Shown in pieces: positions 6,590 through 13,236 of a stretch of DNA of 64,000 nucleotides. The notes below the pieces were generated by a model that saw nothing but the letters and a program-made list of their open reading frames with translations, did no database searches and was not told the DNA's origin. Each line of letters begins with the position of its first letter. Position 1 is the stretch's first letter. Origin of the DNA: the human T2T-CHM13v2.0 reference genome, Homo sapiens; the NCBI RefSeq assembly GCF_009914755.1, contig NC_060946.1. One strand, written 5' to 3'. Made by a program: the position numbers and the translations under genes.

Positions 6590-7588
6590 CCCAAACTCCT
6601 GTCTTCTCGTCCCTTGGTCTATCTCCCTCTGGGCCCCAGAGCCTGGCTCAAGGCCCAGCACGCTAGGAGATCCATCTTCATGTGACAGAAACGGATTCTC
6701 TCCCTTCTCTGCCCTCCTGGTGAGCATCTCCCCACCCCACCCCCAAATATCTGCCCAGCCCGCCATGGACAGCTTGGTTCCTGGGCCTGAGATCCGAGGA
6801 AGGCCAGCCCTGTTCATGCCTCCACTCTCTTGTGTGGATGAATTTCTACAAAACAGACCACACACAGATTGTCCCAGTGTAAAGTTGAGTCCCCCGACGT
6901 GTCGGACTACTGCCTACAAATGGACACACGTTCCCCAGAGAGCTCAGATTATACCCTCGAGAAGCCCAAAGAACCCCTGCCGCCTCCCCTTCCCCAAGCC
7001 AGGCCCCAGAGTGGGGCGTTTCCATACCCCGCCTCAAGGCCTGGTACAGTCCGGGAAGAACCAGCAGGCTCACGCTGGCCAGAGGGCCTCTCTCAGTCCT
7101 ACTACAGAGGCATAAAAAGGGCTCCTTTGCTTCCTCCACAGCCCTGTTGTGAGTCTTGTGCAGGAATTAACTTGCGTAACAGCCCAGAGGCTGAGACAGG
7201 GCTAATGCCGTGGGAGAGGTCAGAGTGTGAGCCCATGGCCCCGTCTCTGCTGGGAACCAACCTTCCAAAATATGTTAAGGCAGAAGGAGATAGAGACCTG
7301 GCCGAGGGCAGAAAAAGTTTTTCCAGCAGAAACTAATCCATGAGGGGTCAGGCCTGAGCATAGAAACCCTTGGCCCCAAGTCAGGCAGCCTCCGAGGTTT
7401 TAAACTACTTGAGGCCCCTTAGAGTTCTGGGGCGCCTGGTACCATCTGCCACTGCCACTGCCACCCACCCCTCCACAACACATTGGTCTCTTTCTGGGGC
7501 CCTGGGAGCTTCTAGGTCGGCTGGGCTGGCTGCATCTGCAGCAGTCATGGACTCACCTAAGCAAACACTGGTCCAATGGGGGCTCTCC

Positions 7589-7621
7589 TCACTTCCCGAG
7601 ATGGTCAAATGGCACACTTGT
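7589..7621 (-). CDS. CSNK1E: CSNK1E exon 10 coding part (TSVPFDHLGK*); exon continues as UTR to 7557
   Basis: Long pyrimidine tract then aaaag|ACA; TGA at 7591-7589; donor TAG|gtgagt at 7557/7556. Confidence 0.97.
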   Translation of the reverse strand, partial: TSVPFDHLGK

Positions 7622-8410
7622 CTTTTGAGGGTGGGGAGGGAGAGAGGGGGAGGGAGAGAGAGGGAGGTACAAGCTTCAAGTCAAGTCCCTTAGCCGCTGG
7701 CGATAGAGATTTGGCAAGTCTCTCCCCACTGAGGAGGTGTACCCCCACCCCCACCTCCAGGCAGCCCCTCAAGCTGAGGGAAGGCCTGTGTGATTCCAGT
7801 GACTCTAAGATGTCCCTGTCTGTAGCTAAGAATGTTGCCCAGGGAGGCAAACCTGCTACCTAAGTAGATGGCCAATGAGGGTTCTCTCGCAGGACTCCCT
7901 CCTCGCCCACAGGCAGGAGGACGAGGGCAGGGCTCCCACCCACCTCTGCCAGGCCACCTGCCCTGGGCAACTACAGATTCCCCCTTCCCAAGTGTCCCCA
8001 TCCAAACATAGCCCCAAAGAGGATGGGACCTCACTGCCCCTACACCCCATGCTCTTGCCAATGCTCACAGGGGCTCCTGGGGGCTCCCTGATGTCAGGGA
8101 GCAGCAACACCTCATCTCTGAGCCCCTGCTGCCCACCCTGGCTGGGCCCCTGGCAGCGAGGACTGGAGCCCAGCTGTGCCACTTGCCAGGGAATGTTACT
8201 GCCCTGAGCCTTGGTGAATGACTTTGCTCAAGAGGGCTCATCAGACCTCAGAGGATTAAATGAGGCCAAGTCCTGGCTCAACAGAAGGGGTTCACTCCAA
8301 GGCAAGCAGCGTCGATGGAAAGGGAAGAACAGAGCCACGGCCTGACCTCCCACTGGGGGGTCTCTAACTCAGTTCTGAGGCCCAGAGGGACTGGCAGGGG
8401 GGCAGCTCAC

Positions 8411-8550
8411 CTGTGAGGCTGGGATCCGGGAGACCTCTTGCCGCCCAGTGAGGTCTGAGGAGGAGACGTTGGCGGGCGCACCCCTGTGCAGCCTCATACT
8501 CACCTTCCTCTCCCGGTCGACCCGCGAGATCGCTCTGGGAGAAGTATTGC
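8411..8550 (-). CDS. CSNK1E: CSNK1E exon 9 ([47 protein letters not shown])
   Basis: ccag|GCAAT ... CAG|gtgagc; 140 nt; preceded by a 93-nt intron. Confidence 0.98.
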
Positions 8551-8643
8551 CTGGAGGGAGAGTGGGAAGCCACCCTCAGAGTAGGCACAAACAGAGCCCC
8601 CCACCCACCCTGAACCCAGCCCACTGCCTGAGTCCCTGCTCAC

Positions 8644-8836
8644 CAGCCGGCTGGATGCGGGAGGCTGGCGTGGAAGCCACGGGCTCGGCGGCACTGCGGA
8701 GCCGGTTGGCAGTGGCCCCCGTGGGTGGGCCAGGGGGCAGGGCTCGGGTCGCGGACCCCCGTAGCTGCCCCATCCTCTCCTCGCGTTCGTGTTCTCGCCG
8801 CTCCCGGTCCACATCCTCGGGATTCCGGGCTGCACC
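8644..8836 (-). CDS. CSNK1E: CSNK1E exon 8 ([64 protein letters not shown]); autoinhibitory tail
   Basis: gcag|GGT ... GCTG|gtgagc; 193 nt; matches ORF 8576..8860. Confidence 0.98.
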
Positions 8837-9688
8837 CTGCAGGGATGCAAGAAAAGACACCAGTCAGCCCCAGAGGCCAGGGTGCTCTGGGCCCAGCAGC
8901 CCTGCAGGGCACAGAAGGGGAGGGAGGCCAGGTGGATATCTCAGAAACCTTCTGCTCCAGCCTCCCTGACAAGCGCGGGAAGCCAAGACCCACGATCACA
9001 CAGCACAGAGACACGAAGCCACACAACCACCAGAGGAAGGAGAAAGCAGGAGTCTGGGGGCAGAGGGAGGTCAGTCTGCCCTGCTCTCCTGGGATGGAGC
9101 CAGAGAAAGGACAACTAATGCGCCCAGGATGATCAAGAGCACCTCTTGGCCCTCCTGACCTGGGGCTGGGCCTGCCCTGGCCCCACTCTGTGTACCAAGA
9201 GCCCTTAACTACTCAAGGTTGCTAAACCGAGCAGGAAAGCTGTTTAGAGGCCTCTAGCAGACTGGCTAGGGGTGTCCAGAGGGGGAAAAGAACAGGCCCA
9301 GAGTCACAAAACTAGTGGAAGGCTGGGCTAGGACTCAGACCAGCTCTCCCGGTACCTAGCCAGGGGCTCTTCTCATCAGGGAGCTGTCCTTCCCCCTGCC
9401 GGGACCTGGCAATGGCTTCTGGCAGGTGCAGTGGAGGCCACAGCCAGGAGGCCCAGGGAACCCACAGACACCGCCTGCCTTGGGACAGAAGCTCAAGGGG
9501 AGCTGGAGAAGAAAATGGGGCCACGTTCCCCACGGAGGAAGAAGAGGCCCAGCAGGCAAAGCTGGAGCAGAAGGGGTACCCTAAGCCCCCAGGTGCCCTG
9601 CTGTCCAGCCACTGCCGCCCCTGGTGCAGGAGGAAGTGAGAAGGGGCCAGAGAAGAGCATATGTGGGGGCAGCGCCCGACTGCGTTAC

Positions 9689-9749
9689 CTAGTTCATCCT
9701 GGGGCCGTCCACAGGGAAGGGCAGGGGGCTGGCAGGAAGGGGGCCGCAT
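9689..9749 (-). CDS. CSNK1E: Candidate 61-nt frameshifting cassette exon (MRPPSCQPPALPCGRPQDEL+G)
   Basis: Acceptor ctctctcctccacag|ATG; donor TAG|gtaacg; leads into an open alternative frame of exons 8-10. Confidence 0.6.
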
Positions 9750-11920: not shown

Positions 11921-11926
11921 TTTAAT
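11921..11926 (-). terminator. Candidate intronic polyA signal ATTAAA for the alternative terminal exon
   Basis: Plus-strand tttaat about 260 nt after the alternative stop. Confidence 0.45.
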
Positions 11927-12185
11927 GAGTTCTGGTTCAACACAGAGGCCGCCAACGGGGTCTAGCTATGAGTCTGTCCTGGGACCCGTTCCCACCAGGC
12001 CCCTTGTGGGCAGTGGCCACCATCCCTCCCTCAGGCTGTCCTGGCCCTCAAGGACCCCATGGCAGGGCCTTTTCCACCATGGCCTCCACTGTGCTGCCAT
12101 CTCTTGGGAACAGGGGGTCATCCCATCCTCCCAAGAAACACTTCCTCAGGCCTGGCCCCGATGGGCTCAGGCACACCTGGCGACA

Positions 12186-12300
12186 TCAGAAATGGGGCCC
12201 TGGAGTCCAGACCACAGGCCAGTAGTTTTGGGGGGACAGCTCCTCCACCTCCTCCACCGGCCTATCTGGGGGGCTCTGGGTGCCCAGGGGAGCCGGGCAC
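12186..12300 (-). CDS. CSNK1E: Candidate alternative terminal exon, coding part (WCPAPLGTQSPPDRPVEEVEELSPQNYWPVVWTPGPHF*)
   Basis: Strong acceptor gctttttgtccctttcag|G; in frame with the 12396-12505 exon; TGA at 12188-12186; ATTAAA at 11926-11921. Confidence 0.7.
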
Positions 12301-12395
12301 CTGAAAGGGACAAAAAGCACAGCTGAGGCTCAGCCTCTTGCGCTCACTGGTCAAGTGGCAAATTTTGGAAAAGCCAGACCTCAGAGGATCCTTAC

Positions 12396-12505
12396 CAGTA
12401 CGTGGGTGAGTACGTGGGCCCAGCACAGGGACAGGGGCGGGGACAGAAAGGTCCCTTCGCTGTCATGGGGCTGTCACGGGGCTGAGCCTGGCTCGAGGAA
12501 GCCCC
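12396..12505 (-). CDS. CSNK1E: Candidate alternative CSNK1E exon in intron 7 (GASSSQAQPRDSPMTAKGPFCPRPCPCAGPTYSPTY)
   Basis: Acceptor tcttgtttcacatctcttctggaaaag|GGG; donor CTG|GTAAGG; 110 nt, open in phase 0 after exon 7. Confidence 0.7.
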
Positions 12506-13087
12506 CTTTTCCAGAAGAGATGTGAAACAAGACATACAATTTCACAGATTCCAGAGCTCTGGGTACGGCCGGCCAATGCTGCTCCCCACCCAACCCCACC
12601 CCTGGGACTCTTAAAAGAGGGAAACAGAACAACTGCCTAGCCAGACCCAGGGGCCCATGACCAAGAAGAAAGCAAGCACCATGACTGGGTCCAGGCTGGC
12701 CCGAGGGGCCATGGTGCAGGTAGCCACCTGGGATGTGCAGAACAGGAGCAGCAGGACGGTGTAGGCAGCAATCAGGGCAGCAGGGGGCGCCGCCAGCACC
12801 ACCCATGCCCTGCTGCGGGCACCCAGGAGGGACCCCAGGTGAAGCCAGATCCTCCTTGTTCCGACGGGAGACAGCGCCCTGCCTGGGCCCTGCTGCCCAT
12901 GGTGGCACAAGCTGTCAGCACGGATGAGGCTGGAGGGCTCTGGGACCCCAGTGAGGTCAACCACACTGTCCAGCTCGTACCTCCCGTCTGTCGGGAGCCC
13001 CTCCCGCCACCAGCTCACTCTGGCCCTCTGAGTCAGGGCCTTCCCCATCCAGTCCCCCAAGCCCGCCTTGGCCTCCAGGTGACTCAC

Positions 13088-13236
13088 GAATTTCAGCATG
13101 TTCCAGTCAAAGACGTAGTCATAGGAGAAGCCCTGCCGGTGGAAGAGGTTGCGGAAGAGCTGACGTAGGTAAGAGTAGTCGGGCTTGTCGTCAAACCGCA
13201 GGGAGCGGCAGAAGTTGAGGTATGTTGAGAATTCGG
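13088..13236 (-). CDS. CSNK1E: CSNK1E exon 7 ([50 protein letters not shown]); end of kinase domain
   Basis: ccag|CCGAA ... TTC|gtgagt; 149 nt; ends in phase 0 at codon 295. Confidence 0.99.

What the first reader, a model, noticed from the sequence alone, without database searches (positions are those of the whole stretch)
7557..13088. Tail-swapping system: one phase-0 junction after the CK1e kinase domain (F295) leads to at least four alternative C-terminal tails
Seen: exon 7 ends exactly at codon 295. Intron 7 offers several in-frame continuations: the canonical tail (416 aa); 12505-12396 plus 12300-12186 (369 aa); the 12300 acceptor alone (VPGSPGHPEPPR*, 307 aa); cassette 9749-9689 into the second frame of exons 8-10 (431 aa); and donor read-through to 12611 (453 aa). 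Established: the canonical CK1e/CK1d tail autoinhibits through autophosphorylation, and small tail differences in CK1d isoforms alter PER2 phosphorylation. Inference: intron 7 is a modular switch attaching different regulatory or localisation tails to one kinase. I recall rodent CK1e splice forms with different tails but cannot verify which correspond to these.
Basis: partly seen in the sequence, partly recalled or inferred. Interest (0 to 1): 0.85.

Follow-up and report, generated by a model that had tools for sequence, protein, structure and literature searches.

The report
Four alternative tails of CK1 epsilon
The intron that follows the kinase domain of the human clock kinase gene CSNK1E holds alternative coding pieces, kept readable across mammals, that would replace the enzyme's self-inhibiting tail with several quite different tails, none of which is in the human RefSeq annotation.

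Summary
Exon 7 ends in phase 0 at F295, and the five products are 416, 369, 307, 431 and 453 aa.

All four alternative tails also exist as predicted CK1-epsilon isoforms in other mammals:
- **Read-through tail (158 aa).** It runs to the same C-terminus in 22 other placental species. It has 15 in-frame gap runs and two conserved hydrophobic stretches.
- **61-nt cassette (9749-9689).** It shifts exons 8-10 into a second frame that stays open to one shared stop in 17 species, a marsupial included. The mouse form carries the source name "isoform c".
- **Exons 7a+7b (74 aa).** The tail is found in placentals and a marsupial.
- **7b alone (307 aa).** It appears in one bat cluster.

Neutral expectations of 12, 11 and 5 stop-creating changes (P(0) 6e-6, 1e-5 and 0.006) contrast with none seen. 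Intron translated past the cassette diverges freely (21% against 60% identity).

The exon-7 donor is the weakest in the gene. A paper reports an intronic poly(A) event in this intron.

Human use and function are not shown: RefSeq has one human protein. The anatomy is supported; the switch function remains inferred.

The parts
13088..13236 (-). Exon 7, the last kinase-domain exon. It ends at codon 295 (F) in phase 0. Its donor TTC|GTGAGT is weak.
   Evidence: My splice-site matrix (PWM) gives the donor 3.62 bits, the 4th percentile of 202 true chr22 donors and the lowest in the gene. The acceptor is at the 10th percentile. CSNK1D has the same phase-0 boundary.
12611..13087 (-). Read-through extension of exon 7: 158 codons plus the stop at 12613-12611, giving the 453-aa isoform.
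   Evidence: The same tail (146-165 aa) reaches the same C-terminus in 22 other placental species. No Pfam family. No paralogue in the human genome.
12716..12808 (-). First hydrophobic stretch of the read-through tail (tail residues about 94-124).
   Evidence: Kyte-Doolittle 19-residue mean peaks at 2.19 in human. A matching stretch is present in manatee, rat and fox.
12623..12688 (-). Second hydrophobic stretch (tail residues about 134-155). It ends 3 residues before the C-terminus and lies in one of the two best-conserved parts of the tail.
   Evidence: Kyte-Doolittle peak 1.94. Mean column conservation is 0.81-0.87 over the last 45 columns.
12396..12505 (-). Alternative exon 7a (110 nt), the first part of the 74-aa tail.
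   Evidence: Tails that start at this boundary occur in capuchin, green monkey, a Myotis bat, tenrec, cattle, Tasmanian devil and hamster. The acceptor scores poorly in my PWM (-0.64 bits). The donor is at the 51st percentile.
12177..12300 (-). Alternative exon 7b. Acceptor at 12300, donor-like site at 12177. After 7a its frame stops at 12188-12186 (369 aa). Joined directly to exon 7 it stops at 12264-12262 (307 aa).
   Evidence: The acceptor scores 12.92 bits, the best of 323 AG sites in the intron and the 93rd percentile of true sites. The donor scores 9.3 bits. The 7b part is identical at 30-35 of 37 residues in five intact placental models, at 19 of 36 in the frame-shifted yak model, and at 22 of 37 in Tasmanian devil. 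A 307-aa form exists in one bat cluster.
10512..10527 (-). Candidate intronic poly(A) site: AGTAAA at 10527-10522, with the reported cleavage position at about 10512.
   Evidence: The hexamer and a downstream GT-rich run were found. PMC12626307 (passages) reports an intronic polyadenylation event 'CSNK1E: Chr22:38296209' on hg38. The mapping to the window uses GRCh38 gene coordinates recalled from memory. The only check is that the recalled gene length agrees to within 2 bases.
11921..11926 (-). ATTAAA hexamer, a second possible poly(A) signal for transcripts that end in the intron.
   Evidence: There is no AATAAA anywhere in the intron.
9689..9749 (-). Cassette exon 7c (61 nt, 20 codons plus 1 base). 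It shifts the reading frame of exons 8-10.
   Evidence: The same 20-residue block is present in 17 other species, including a wallaby. Acceptor at the 86th percentile, donor at the 19th.
8644..8836 (-). Exon 8, read in two frames (canonical tail and cassette tail).
8411..8550 (-). Exon 9, read in two frames.
7557..7621 (-). Exon 10. The second-frame stop is at 7607-7605, 48 nt before the last exon junction. The canonical stop is at 7591-7589.

Best explanation
Intron 7 of CSNK1E is a conserved alternative-tail region. The kinase domain ends in phase 0 at a weak splice donor, and four outcomes compete with normal splicing to exon 8.

1. **The donor is not used.** Translation runs 158 codons into the intron. 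The resulting tail has two hydrophobic stretches at its end (453 aa).
2. **Exon 7 joins exon 7a and then 7b.** This gives a 74-residue proline- and cysteine-rich acidic tail (369 aa).
3. **Exon 7 joins 7b directly.** This gives a 12-residue stub (307 aa), probably a by-product of skipping 7a.
4. **The 61-nt cassette 7c is included.** Exons 8-10 are then read in a second frame to a stop 48 nt before the last junction (431 aa), so that message should escape nonsense-mediated decay.

Outcomes 1-3 need a 3' end inside the intron. One has been reported at about 10512.

Every alternative removes the canonical autophosphorylated, autoinhibitory tail.

**Shown:** the sequence anatomy in human; that the frames stay open and similar across mammals; the weak donor.

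**Inferred:** that the proteins are made in human tissues; that loss of the canonical tail relieves autoinhibition; that the hydrophobic end of the read-through tail ties the kinase to a membrane.
For: **Anatomy.**

**Read-through tail.**
- Searching with it returned 21 hits of 71 candidates. Searching with the manatee tail returned 18 hits of 806 candidates.
- All hits are placental CK1 isoforms, mostly 450-460 aa, covering 85-100% of the tail.
- 23 of 23 full read-through models (22 species; rat counted twice) end in one C-terminal motif of the ...SLF/SLS type.
- In the 20-species alignment (human included), 26 of 166 columns are invariant. There are at least 333 residue changes and 15 distinct gap runs, all in frame.
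- Human codons have 37 nonsense against 1018 missense single-base changes. About 12.1 stops would therefore be expected if the tail were unconstrained. None was seen, P(0) = 5.5e-6.

**Cassette tail.**
- 17 other species, from mouse to wallaby, share the 20-residue cassette block and the same stop. Cluster sizes reach 105 members.
- Of the changes that are silent in the canonical frame, 19 would make a stop in the second frame and 266 a missense. With at least 157 second-frame changes, 11.2 stops are expected. None was seen, P(0) = 1.3e-5.

**7a+7b tail.**
- Seven models plus two hybrids. 5.1 stops expected, none seen, P(0) = 0.006.

**Internal control.** Intron translated beyond the cassette donor in 5 species ends at different places (54-110 residues) and is 21% identical on average. 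Read-through tails over a similar species spread are 60% identical.

**Splicing.** The exon-7 donor is at the 4th percentile of true donors. The 12300 acceptor is the best in the intron.

**Papers (passages only).**
- Intronic polyadenylation event in CSNK1E, from TCGA breast data (PMC12626307).
- Retention of the orthologous mouse intron. Its PCR primers map to exon 7 with 2 mismatches, to the first 45 nt of the intron with 2 mismatches, and more weakly to exon 8 with 5 mismatches. The retained-intron RNA was on polysomes. An MHC-I peptide, AGPSAALI, was assigned to it (PMC13562731). That peptide is an exact substring of the rat read-through tail.
- Two mouse protein-coding isoforms with the same kinase domain and different C-termini, one specific to choroid plexus (bioRxiv 10.1101/2025.08.27.672533).
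- The canonical tail's autophosphorylation sites (PMC4032983).
Against: - **No human annotation.** Human RefSeq (RS_2025_08) has three transcripts with one coding sequence and no Gnomon model for this gene. The same file holds 1735 Gnomon rows for chr22.
- **No direct human data.** I had no junction reads, Ribo-seq or mass spectra.
- **The other-species proteins are models.** Most are Gnomon or Ensembl predictions, not proven proteins. Retained-intron RNA alone can produce such models.
- **Ascertainment.** A species with a broken frame might have no model, so the P values are conditional. That said, no truncated or frame-shifted read-through or cassette tail appeared among the 122 proteins examined.
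- **The tail-blind search was only sampled.** It listed the best 120 of 1040 hits, tied in score.
- **The 7a+7b end is imperfectly kept.** Only 6 of the 8 models that read to the end of 7b keep the shared stop. Tenrec runs on, and one yak model is frame-shifted.
- **Weak splice-site scores.** My PWM gives the 7a acceptor -0.64 bits, below all true sites. The cassette donor is at only the 19th percentile. Another 61-nt pseudo-exon (10225-10165) scores better than the cassette.
- **The 307-aa form is rare.** It was seen in 1 of 122 proteins.
- **Decay risk.** Without an intronic poly(A) site, outcomes 1-3 would carry stops far upstream of later junctions and should be degraded.
- **The poly(A) mapping is soft.** It rests on recalled GRCh38 coordinates.
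- **The peptide evidence is weak.** It is a single 8-mer, and its authors read it as a small non-canonical ORF.
- **The membrane-anchor idea is untested.** The hydrophobic stretches contain prolines. No Pfam family matches any tail. No structure could be predicted.
- **Restricted range.** No non-mammalian model of any alternative tail was seen.
Confidence: 0.65

Rival explanations
1. Dose control rather than new proteins. The alternative exons, the retention of intron 7 and the intronic poly(A) site are conserved because they divert pre-mRNA into unproductive or nuclear-detained forms. This would set the level of canonical CK1-epsilon. Any proteins made would be incidental.
For: - The exon-7 donor is weak and the decoy acceptor at 12300 is strong. 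Exon 7b carries a stop in frame 0 and has a usable donor at 12177, so it has the form of a 124-nt poison exon.
- Retention of the mouse intron responds to PRMT5 (PMC13562731).
- Stops of the read-through and 7a/7b forms lie far upstream of later junctions unless the transcript ends in the intron.
- Deeply conserved cassette exons are often regulatory (general knowledge).
Against: - RNA-level constraint does not explain frames that stay open to shared stop codons through at least 333, 157 and 83 residue changes, with 15 in-frame gap runs in the read-through tail.
- It does not explain why the hydrophobic C-terminal 45 columns are among the best-conserved parts of the read-through tail.
- The cassette form stops 48 nt before the last junction, so it should not be a decay target.
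Confidence: 0.2
2. Splicing noise plus annotation artefact. The models in other species come from unspliced or mis-spliced RNA. The frames are open only because the sequence is GC-rich, or because they overlap the strongly conserved canonical frame.
For: - The intron is 59% G+C and the read-through stretch 65%.
- Both off-frames of exons 8-10 are open for 80 and 115 codons. There are 19 comparable pseudo-exons in the intron.
- Another donor in the gene (17162) has a 139-codon read-through.
- Human RefSeq annotates none of these forms.
- Some database entries are clearly artefactual hybrids (P0004, P0048, P0106, P0122).
Against: - The same exon boundaries and the same stops recur in independent lineages.
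- The control translation of neighbouring intron drifts to 21% identity and variable length, against 60% for the read-through tail.
- Canonical-frame conservation does not protect the second frame. 19 silent changes would stop it and 11.2 such events are expected, yet none occurred.
- A 158-codon open run is at the 1e-4 tail of the gene's own introns.
Confidence: 0.08
3. Only one alternative tail matters. The cassette form (mouse 'isoform c', 431 aa) is the single functional alternative protein. The read-through and 7a/7b forms are products of an intronic poly(A) site whose role is simply to truncate the message.
For: - The cassette form has the largest clusters (at least 201 member sequences summed). 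It reaches a marsupial, it carries a curated-style name in mouse, and it should escape decay.
- The end of the 7a/7b tail is not kept in 2 of 8 models.
Against: The read-through tail passes the same open-frame test at a similar level, P(0) = 5.5e-6, and adds in-frame gap runs and position-specific conservation.
Confidence: 0.07

Closest known systems
CK1-delta splice isoforms delta1 and delta2, which differ in their extreme C-termini
   Same: One kinase domain carries alternative C-terminal sequence made by alternative splicing. The tail controls autoinhibition and PER2 phosphorylation (PMC11474029, passages).
   Different: In CK1-delta only the last 16 residues differ. Here the whole tail from residue 296 is replaced, by three different routes. 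The human CSNK1D read-through at the homologous F295 boundary is only 19 codons, and the read-through tail has no match at CSNK1D.
Database isoforms of CK1-epsilon in other mammals: mouse 'casein kinase I isoform epsilon isoform c' (431 aa) and Gnomon 'casein kinase I isoform X...' models
   Same: They have the same exon boundaries and tails as the human paths.
   Different: They are predictions or database names. In ten literature searches I found no description of their conservation, of the second reading frame or of the hydrophobic tail. Human RefSeq lacks them.
Rat CK1-epsilon splice forms (Takano et al. 2004, 'rat casein kinase 1epsilon-3')
   Same: Probably one of these tails.
   Different: I saw only the title in reference lists. 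The paper is not held. Which tail it describes is unknown to me.
Membrane-tethered CK1 family members: CK1-gamma and yeast Yck1/2, anchored through C-terminal palmitoylation (recalled, not tested here)
   Same: If the hydrophobic end of the read-through tail inserts into a membrane, the result is a CK1 kinase domain held at a membrane.
   Different: The anchor here would be a hydrophobic peptide, not a lipid. I saw no cysteine-rich lipidation motif of that kind. Localisation is untested.
Dual-coding exons reached by alternative splicing, such as CDKN2A INK4a/ARF and GNAS XL-alpha-s/ALEX (recalled)
   Same: The same exons are read in two frames, and both frames are kept open across species.
   Different: Here the switch is a 61-nt frameshifting cassette downstream of a shared kinase domain. 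Translation of the second frame has not been demonstrated.
Composite terminal exons made by intronic polyadenylation
   Same: An unused 5' splice site, followed by a coding extension and a poly(A) site in the intron.
   Different: Such extensions usually add a few unconserved residues. This one adds 158 codons conserved across placentals.

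Membership tests
CK1 delta/epsilon C-terminal splice isoforms | Identical kinase domain with alternative C-terminal sequence from alternative RNA processing | tested here: met
   All models share residues 1-295 and differ after the ...DWNMLKF boundary. The human paths reproduce them.
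CK1 delta/epsilon C-terminal splice isoforms | The isoforms are expressed in the organism concerned | not testable with these tools
   No human reads were available. Indirect evidence only: an intronic polyadenylation event in human tumours, retention of the mouse intron with polysome association, and mouse isoform imaging.
CK1 delta/epsilon C-terminal splice isoforms | The isoforms differ in autoinhibition or substrate phosphorylation | not testable with these tools
   This is inference only. The listed autophosphorylation sites S323-S408 (PMC4032983) all lie in the canonical tail, which every alternative lacks.
Intronic polyadenylation / composite terminal exon | A poly(A) signal and a mapped cleavage site inside the intron, downstream of the alternative stop | tested here: inconclusive
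   AGTAAA at 10527-10522 and ATTAAA at 11926-11921; no AATAAA. The published site chr22:38296209 (hg38) maps to about 10512 only through recalled GRCh38 coordinates.
Intronic polyadenylation / composite terminal exon | A weak upstream 5' splice site | tested here: met
   3.62 bits, the 4th percentile of 202 true donors and the lowest in the gene.
Dual-coding exons | The second frame is open across species beyond what the first frame's conservation would give | tested here: met
   17 of 17 cassette-tail models end at the same stop. 11.2 stop-creating silent changes are expected and none is seen. The result is conditional on ascertainment.
Dual-coding exons | Both frames are translated | not testable with these tools
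   No peptide or Ribo-seq data. A proteogenomic paper reports novel CSNK1E peptides, but the details are in a closed supplement (PMC9020135).
Tail-anchored or hairpin membrane protein | A hydrophobic segment of about 20 residues within about 30 residues of the C-terminus | tested here: met
   The second stretch (tail residues about 134-155 of 158) has a Kyte-Doolittle mean of 1.94. The first stretch reaches 2.19. Both are conserved in manatee, rat and fox.
Tail-anchored or hairpin membrane protein | Membrane insertion or localisation | not testable with these tools
There is no experiment. Prolines inside both stretches leave the topology open.
Poison exon (splicing coupled to nonsense-mediated decay) | An included exon brings a stop more than 50-55 nt upstream of the last junction | tested here: inconclusive
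   Exon 7b (12300-12177) meets this if it is spliced on to exon 8. Cassette 7c does not, because its stop is 48 nt before the last junction.

The most novel reading that the evidence does not exclude
Placental mammals make a membrane-tethered CK1-epsilon that lacks its autoinhibitory tail. This is the 453-aa read-through form, anchored by a conserved hydrophobic hairpin. Therian mammals in addition truly translate exons 8-10 in two frames. The clock and Wnt kinase would then exist as several differently regulated and differently located enzymes, chosen at one weak splice donor. One form may be tissue-specific, for example in choroid plexus.
Probability: 0.3. Interest if true: 0.8.

Novelty: new variant of a known kind. 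Interest (0 to 1): 0.66.

Why it matters
**Relevance.** CK1-epsilon and CK1-delta set circadian period and act in Wnt signalling. Current work explains their regulation through the autophosphorylated C-terminal tail, and small splice differences in the CK1-delta tail already change period.

**What is new here.** If CK1-epsilon also comes with tails that drop that region altogether, three consequences follow:
- Experiments and inhibitors that are interpreted through a single 416-aa protein miss part of the enzyme population.
- Knock-outs, antibodies raised against the canonical C-terminus, and variant interpretation in intron 7 would need revisiting.
- Synonymous variants in exons 8-10 would need revisiting, because they are not silent in the second frame.

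One of the alternative tails has a likely membrane anchor, and one is encoded in a second frame of the same exons.

**Annotation gap.** Forms annotated in bonobo, chimpanzee and mouse are absent from human RefSeq.

**Testability.** All of this can be tested with existing public RNA-seq, long-read, Ribo-seq and proteomic data.

Tried and rejected
**Splice-site matrices (PWMs).**
- I built them from 202 donors and 211 acceptors of chr22 select transcripts.
- On their scores I first rejected exon 7a (acceptor -0.64 bits) and judged cassette 7c to be no better than other pseudo-exons.
- The cross-species models overturned both judgements. The matrices are kept only for the weak exon-7 donor and the strong 12300 acceptor.

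**Earlier working view.** Before I took 12505-12186 to be just the 3' UTR of the read-through form. That view is rejected.

**Paralogue idea.** Neither the read-through tail (8 matches, only itself below E = 1) nor a long read-through ORF (19 codons) is present at CSNK1D.

**Domain searches.** No Pfam family matches any tail. The ESM Atlas gave no usable hit.

**Search for older origins.**
- No non-mammalian alternative tail appeared among the proteins listed.
- A sugar-glider tail aligns weakly with the read-through profile (9.4 bits; 2 of 2000 shuffles reach it). I leave this as a lead.

**Literature.**
- Ten searches found no paper that describes these tails, a second reading frame or a membrane anchor in CK1-epsilon. 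Searches returned 0 papers.
- This covers only the held library. Most subscription papers, such as Takano 2000 and 2004, are absent from it.
- Fifteen papers were read as passages only ('find' mode): PMC4032983, PMC4201705, bioRxiv 10.1101/2025.08.27.672533, PMC11474029, PMC3701638, PMC13562731, PMC12802741, PMC2613528, PMC9582958, PMC7733671, PMC4008364, PMC12626307, PMC5029452, PMC10002802, PMC9020135.
- Closed supplements may bear on three points: which CSNK1E event is in the RASL-seq signature (PMC5029452), which novel CSNK1E peptide was found (PMC9020135), and the mouse ORF drawing (PMC13562731).

**Rows dropped.**
- Saguinus P0004 was left out of the read-through statistics because its end is a different predicted splice.
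- Rat P0018 was dropped as a duplicate tail.
- The five cassette run-on models were kept apart as a control.
- The hybrids P0045, P0048, P0106 and P0122 were not counted as full members of any class.

Full report
**1.
CSNK1E lies on the minus strand of the window. The exon at 13236-13088 is exon 7 of NM_152221.3. It closes the coding sequence at base 885, exactly codon 295 (F), in phase 0.
- 416 aa for the canonical path.
- 369 aa for 12505-12396 plus 12300 onwards, with the stop at 12188-12186.
- 307 aa for the 12300 acceptor alone, with the stop at 12264-12262.
- 431 aa for cassette 9749-9689 followed by the second frame of exons 8-10, with the stop at 7607-7605.
- 453 aa for read-through, with the stop at 12613-12611.

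One correction is needed. 12186 is the end of a stop codon, not a donor. The nearest donor-like site is 12177.

**2. What chance would give.**
- Intron 7 is 4,251 nt long and 59% G+C. It contains 323 AG and 210 GT dinucleotides and 19 pseudo-exons at lenient thresholds.
- Both off-frames of exons 8-10 are open for 80 and 115 codons.
- An in-frame continuation is therefore not remarkable in itself.
- The 158-codon read-through is unusual. Only 1e-4 of 18,839 sense positions in the gene's introns are followed by that many stop-free codons, and 158 is the maximum.
- The other five frames of that stretch hold 1-5 stops.
- Among the eight internal donors, the read-through lengths are 4, 18, 139, 28, 2, 158, 22 and 13 codons.

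**3. The read-through tail is conserved across placental mammals.**
- Searching the named protein sources with this tail gave 21 hits of 71 candidates. Searching with the manatee tail gave 18 hits of 806 candidates.
- All hits are CK1 isoforms of placentals. Most are called 'casein kinase I isoform X1', most are 450-460 aa, and they cover 85-100% of the tail.
- With two more, 22 species besides human carry it. They are bonobo, siamang, gelada, two strepsirrhines, rat, woodchuck, rabbit, pangolin, four carnivores, donkey, alpaca, warthog, hippopotamus, serow, ibex, two bats and manatee.
- 23 of 23 full models end in one C-terminal motif.
- The alignment of 20 species (human included) has 166 columns. 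Of these, 26 are invariant. There are at least 333 residue changes, 15 distinct gap runs that all preserve the frame, and 59-97% identity to human.
- In the human codons, 37 single-base changes create a stop and 1018 a missense. About 12 stops would accompany 333 missense events if nothing protected the frame. None is seen, P(0) = 5.5e-6.
- Conservation is highest in the first 15 columns and the last 45 columns (0.81-0.89) and lowest in the middle (0.58-0.72).
- The tail has no conserved internal methionine, so it can only be read as a continuation of the kinase.
- It has no Pfam family, no other copy in the human genome and no usable Atlas relative.
- CSNK1D shares the phase-0 boundary but reads through for only 19 codons.

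**4. The cassette and the second frame are conserved across therian mammals.**
- A search with the exon-7 peptide alone is blind to the tail. It returned 1040 hits of 1054 candidates and listed the best 120.
- I fetched all of them and sorted the 122 proteins held by what follows the end of exon 7:
  - 60 canonical;
  - 24 read-through;
  - 22 cassette, of which 17 continue in the second frame of exons 8-10 and 5 run on into the intron;
  - 7 of the 7a+7b type;
  - 1 of the 7b-only type;
  - 4 hybrids;
  - 4 others.
- The 17 second-frame forms are mostly 431 aa. They come from mouse (named 'isoform epsilon isoform c' by UniRef), rat, beaver, mole-rat, marmot, pika, two lemuriforms, horse (a cluster of 105 sequences), jaguar, hippopotamus, four bats, dugong and a wallaby.
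- All 17 share the 20-residue cassette block and the same stop. Identity to the human version is 60-84%.
- The canonical frame of exons 8-10 is nearly invariant in mammals, so second-frame changes are mostly silent in the first frame.
- Among such silent changes, 19 would create a second-frame stop and 266 a missense. With at least 157 second-frame changes, 11.2 stops are expected. None is seen, P(0) = 1.3e-5.
- The second-frame stop ends 48 nt before the last exon junction. By the usual 50-55-nt rule, this message should escape nonsense-mediated decay.

**5. Exons 7a and 7b.**
- Tails that start at the 12505 boundary and cross the 12396|12300 junction occur in capuchin (369 aa, as in human), green monkey, a Myotis bat, tenrec, cattle and Tasmanian devil. 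Hybrids occur in hamster and camel.
- Identity to human is 72-93% in the five intact placental models, 62% in the frame-shifted yak model and 43% in the marsupial. The 7b part keeps 30-35 of 37 residues in the intact placental models (19 of 36 in the yak model) and 22 of 37 in the devil.
- 6 of the 8 models that read to the end of 7b share the stop. The tenrec runs on and one yak model is frame-shifted.
- The stop test gives 5.1 expected and none seen, P(0) = 0.006.
- The 12-residue tail from 7b alone appears once, in a Pipistrellus cluster of 3 sequences (307 aa). I read it as the by-product of skipping 7a.

**6. A control and the caveats.**
- Five models use the cassette acceptor but not its donor, and so translate neighbouring intron (chimpanzee, ground squirrel, mole-rat, a bat, a tenrec). 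After the cassette they end at different places (54-110 residues) and average 21% identity.
- Read-through tails over a similar spread of species average 60% identity. This shows what unconstrained intron looks like in the same gene and in the same kind of model.
- **Caveats:**
  - The proteins are predictions.
  - Species with a broken frame may simply lack a model, so the P values are conditional.
  - Only 120 of 1040 tied hits were listed.
  - Some entries are evident artefacts.

**7. How the choice could be made.**
- I built matrices from 202 donors and 211 acceptors of chr22 select transcripts. With them, the exon-7 donor (TTC|GTGAGT) scores 3.62 bits. That is the 4th percentile of true donors and the lowest in the gene. 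The exon's acceptor is at the 10th percentile.
- The 12300 acceptor is the best of the 323 AG sites in the intron (93rd percentile). The 12177 donor scores 9.3 bits. The cassette acceptor is at the 86th percentile and its donor at the 19th.
- The 7a acceptor scores -0.64 bits. On that basis I first dismissed it, wrongly, as section 5 shows.
- The read-through, 7a+7b and 7b forms stop far upstream of later junctions, so they need a 3' end in the intron.
- The intron has no AATAAA. It has ATTAAA at 11926-11921 and AGTAAA at 10527-10522, the latter followed by a GT-rich run.
- A paper reports an intronic polyadenylation event 'CSNK1E: Chr22:38296209' (hg38) in TCGA breast samples (PMC12626307, passages). 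With GRCh38 gene coordinates that I recall (38,290,691-38,318,084; the length agrees with the window's gene to within 2 bases), this is window position 10512-10514, about 10 nt past the AGTAAA.

**8. Other evidence from papers (passages only).**
- PMC13562731 studied a retained intron of mouse Csnk1e. Its exonic and intronic primers map to human exon 7 and to the first 45 nt of intron 7 with 2 mismatches each. The exon 8 primer matches more weakly, with 5 mismatches of 20. It is therefore the orthologous intron.
- In that study the RNA was on polysomes, and an MHC-I peptide, AGPSAALI, was assigned to it as a small non-canonical ORF.
- That peptide is an exact substring of the rat read-through tail, in the kinase's own frame. 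Ordinary translation of the read-through isoform is the simpler reading. One 8-mer is still weak evidence.
- A preprint imaged two protein-coding mouse Csnk1e isoforms with identical kinase domains and different C-termini, one of them specific to choroid plexus.
- A RASL-seq study lists a CSNK1E splicing event in a myelodysplasia signature. A proteogenomic study lists novel CSNK1E peptides. Both give the details in closed supplements.
- Reviews give a single 416-aa CK1-epsilon (PMC4201705).

**9. What the tails would do (inferred).**
- The canonical tail is basic (pI 11.4) and hydrophilic. It carries the listed autophosphorylation sites S323-S408. Every alternative lacks it.
- The read-through tail is hydrophobic overall (GRAVY +0.40). 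It has two stretches with Kyte-Doolittle means of 2.19 and 1.94. The second ends 3 residues before the C-terminus, and both are conserved in manatee, rat and fox. This fits a C-terminal membrane anchor or hairpin, though both stretches contain prolines.
- The 7a+7b tail is acidic (pI 5.0), with 17 prolines in 74 residues.
- The second-frame tail is rich in proline, cysteine and arginine.
- No structure could be predicted.

**10. Comparison and novelty.**
- The nearest known system is the CK1-delta 1/2 pair, where splicing changes the last 16 residues and thereby autoinhibition and period.
- Here the whole tail is exchanged at the kinase-domain boundary by three routes: exon extension with an intronic 3' end, alternative terminal exons, and a frameshifting cassette that makes exons 8-10 dual-coding.
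- The isoforms themselves are in public databases for other species, and one has a curated-style name in mouse. Their existence is therefore not new.
- Ten searches of the held library found no account of the following:
  - their conservation;
  - the second reading frame;
  - the hydrophobic tail;
  - their absence from human RefSeq.
- The rat papers by Takano and colleagues may describe one of these forms. I saw only a title.

**11. Verdict.**
Conservation is strong for two of them, moderate for one and minimal for the 307-aa stub.
- The functional reading as a switch of regulation or location remains inferred.
- I rate this a new variant of a known kind, interest 0.66.

Noticed in passing
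window 17162 and downstream (minus strand), intron after exon 17310-17162: This donor is also phase 0 (codon 112, inside the kinase domain). It is followed by a 139-codon stop-free read-through, the second longest in the gene.
   Followed up: no
window 13237-13609 (minus strand), end of intron 6: The reading frame of exon 7 stays open for 125 codons upstream into intron 6. A tamarin database protein (P0004) translates this stretch, probably as a prediction artefact.
   Followed up: partly
window 12621-13821: A RefSeq 'CDK7 strongly-dependent group 2 enhancer' feature overlaps exon 7 and nearly all of the read-through coding stretch. The DNA may therefore carry a second, non-coding constraint.
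   Followed up: no
window 11120-11377: This is the only masked repeat in intron 7. It looks Alu-like and sits between exon 7b and the candidate poly(A) site, next to an ATTAAA at 11403-11398.
   Followed up: no
protein P0031 (sugar glider isoform X3), tail of 81 residues: This marsupial tail is spliced on after F295 and has one hydrophobic stretch. It aligns colinearly with positions 74-136 of the read-through profile at 9.4 bits, and 2 of 2000 shuffles reach that score. It may be an older relative of the read-through tail.
   Followed up: partly
proteins P0106 (musk deer), P0045 (camel), P0122 (hamster), P0048 and P0038 (pig): These database models mix the tails: canonical exon 8 followed by the second frame, read-through spliced into 7b, and 7a plus part of 7b joined in frame to exon 8. 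They suggest further minor paths or prediction errors.
   Followed up: no
window 12614-13048 (read-through ORF from its residue 14): The ESM Atlas holds this ORF, starting at an internal methionine. It probably comes from human DNA in a sample. I did not save or pursue it.
   Followed up: no
window 12301-12395: The 7a donor and the 7b acceptor define a 95-nt intron. In read-through transcripts it would lie in the 3' UTR, more than 200 nt after the stop. Splicing it there could mark those messages for decay.
   Followed up: no
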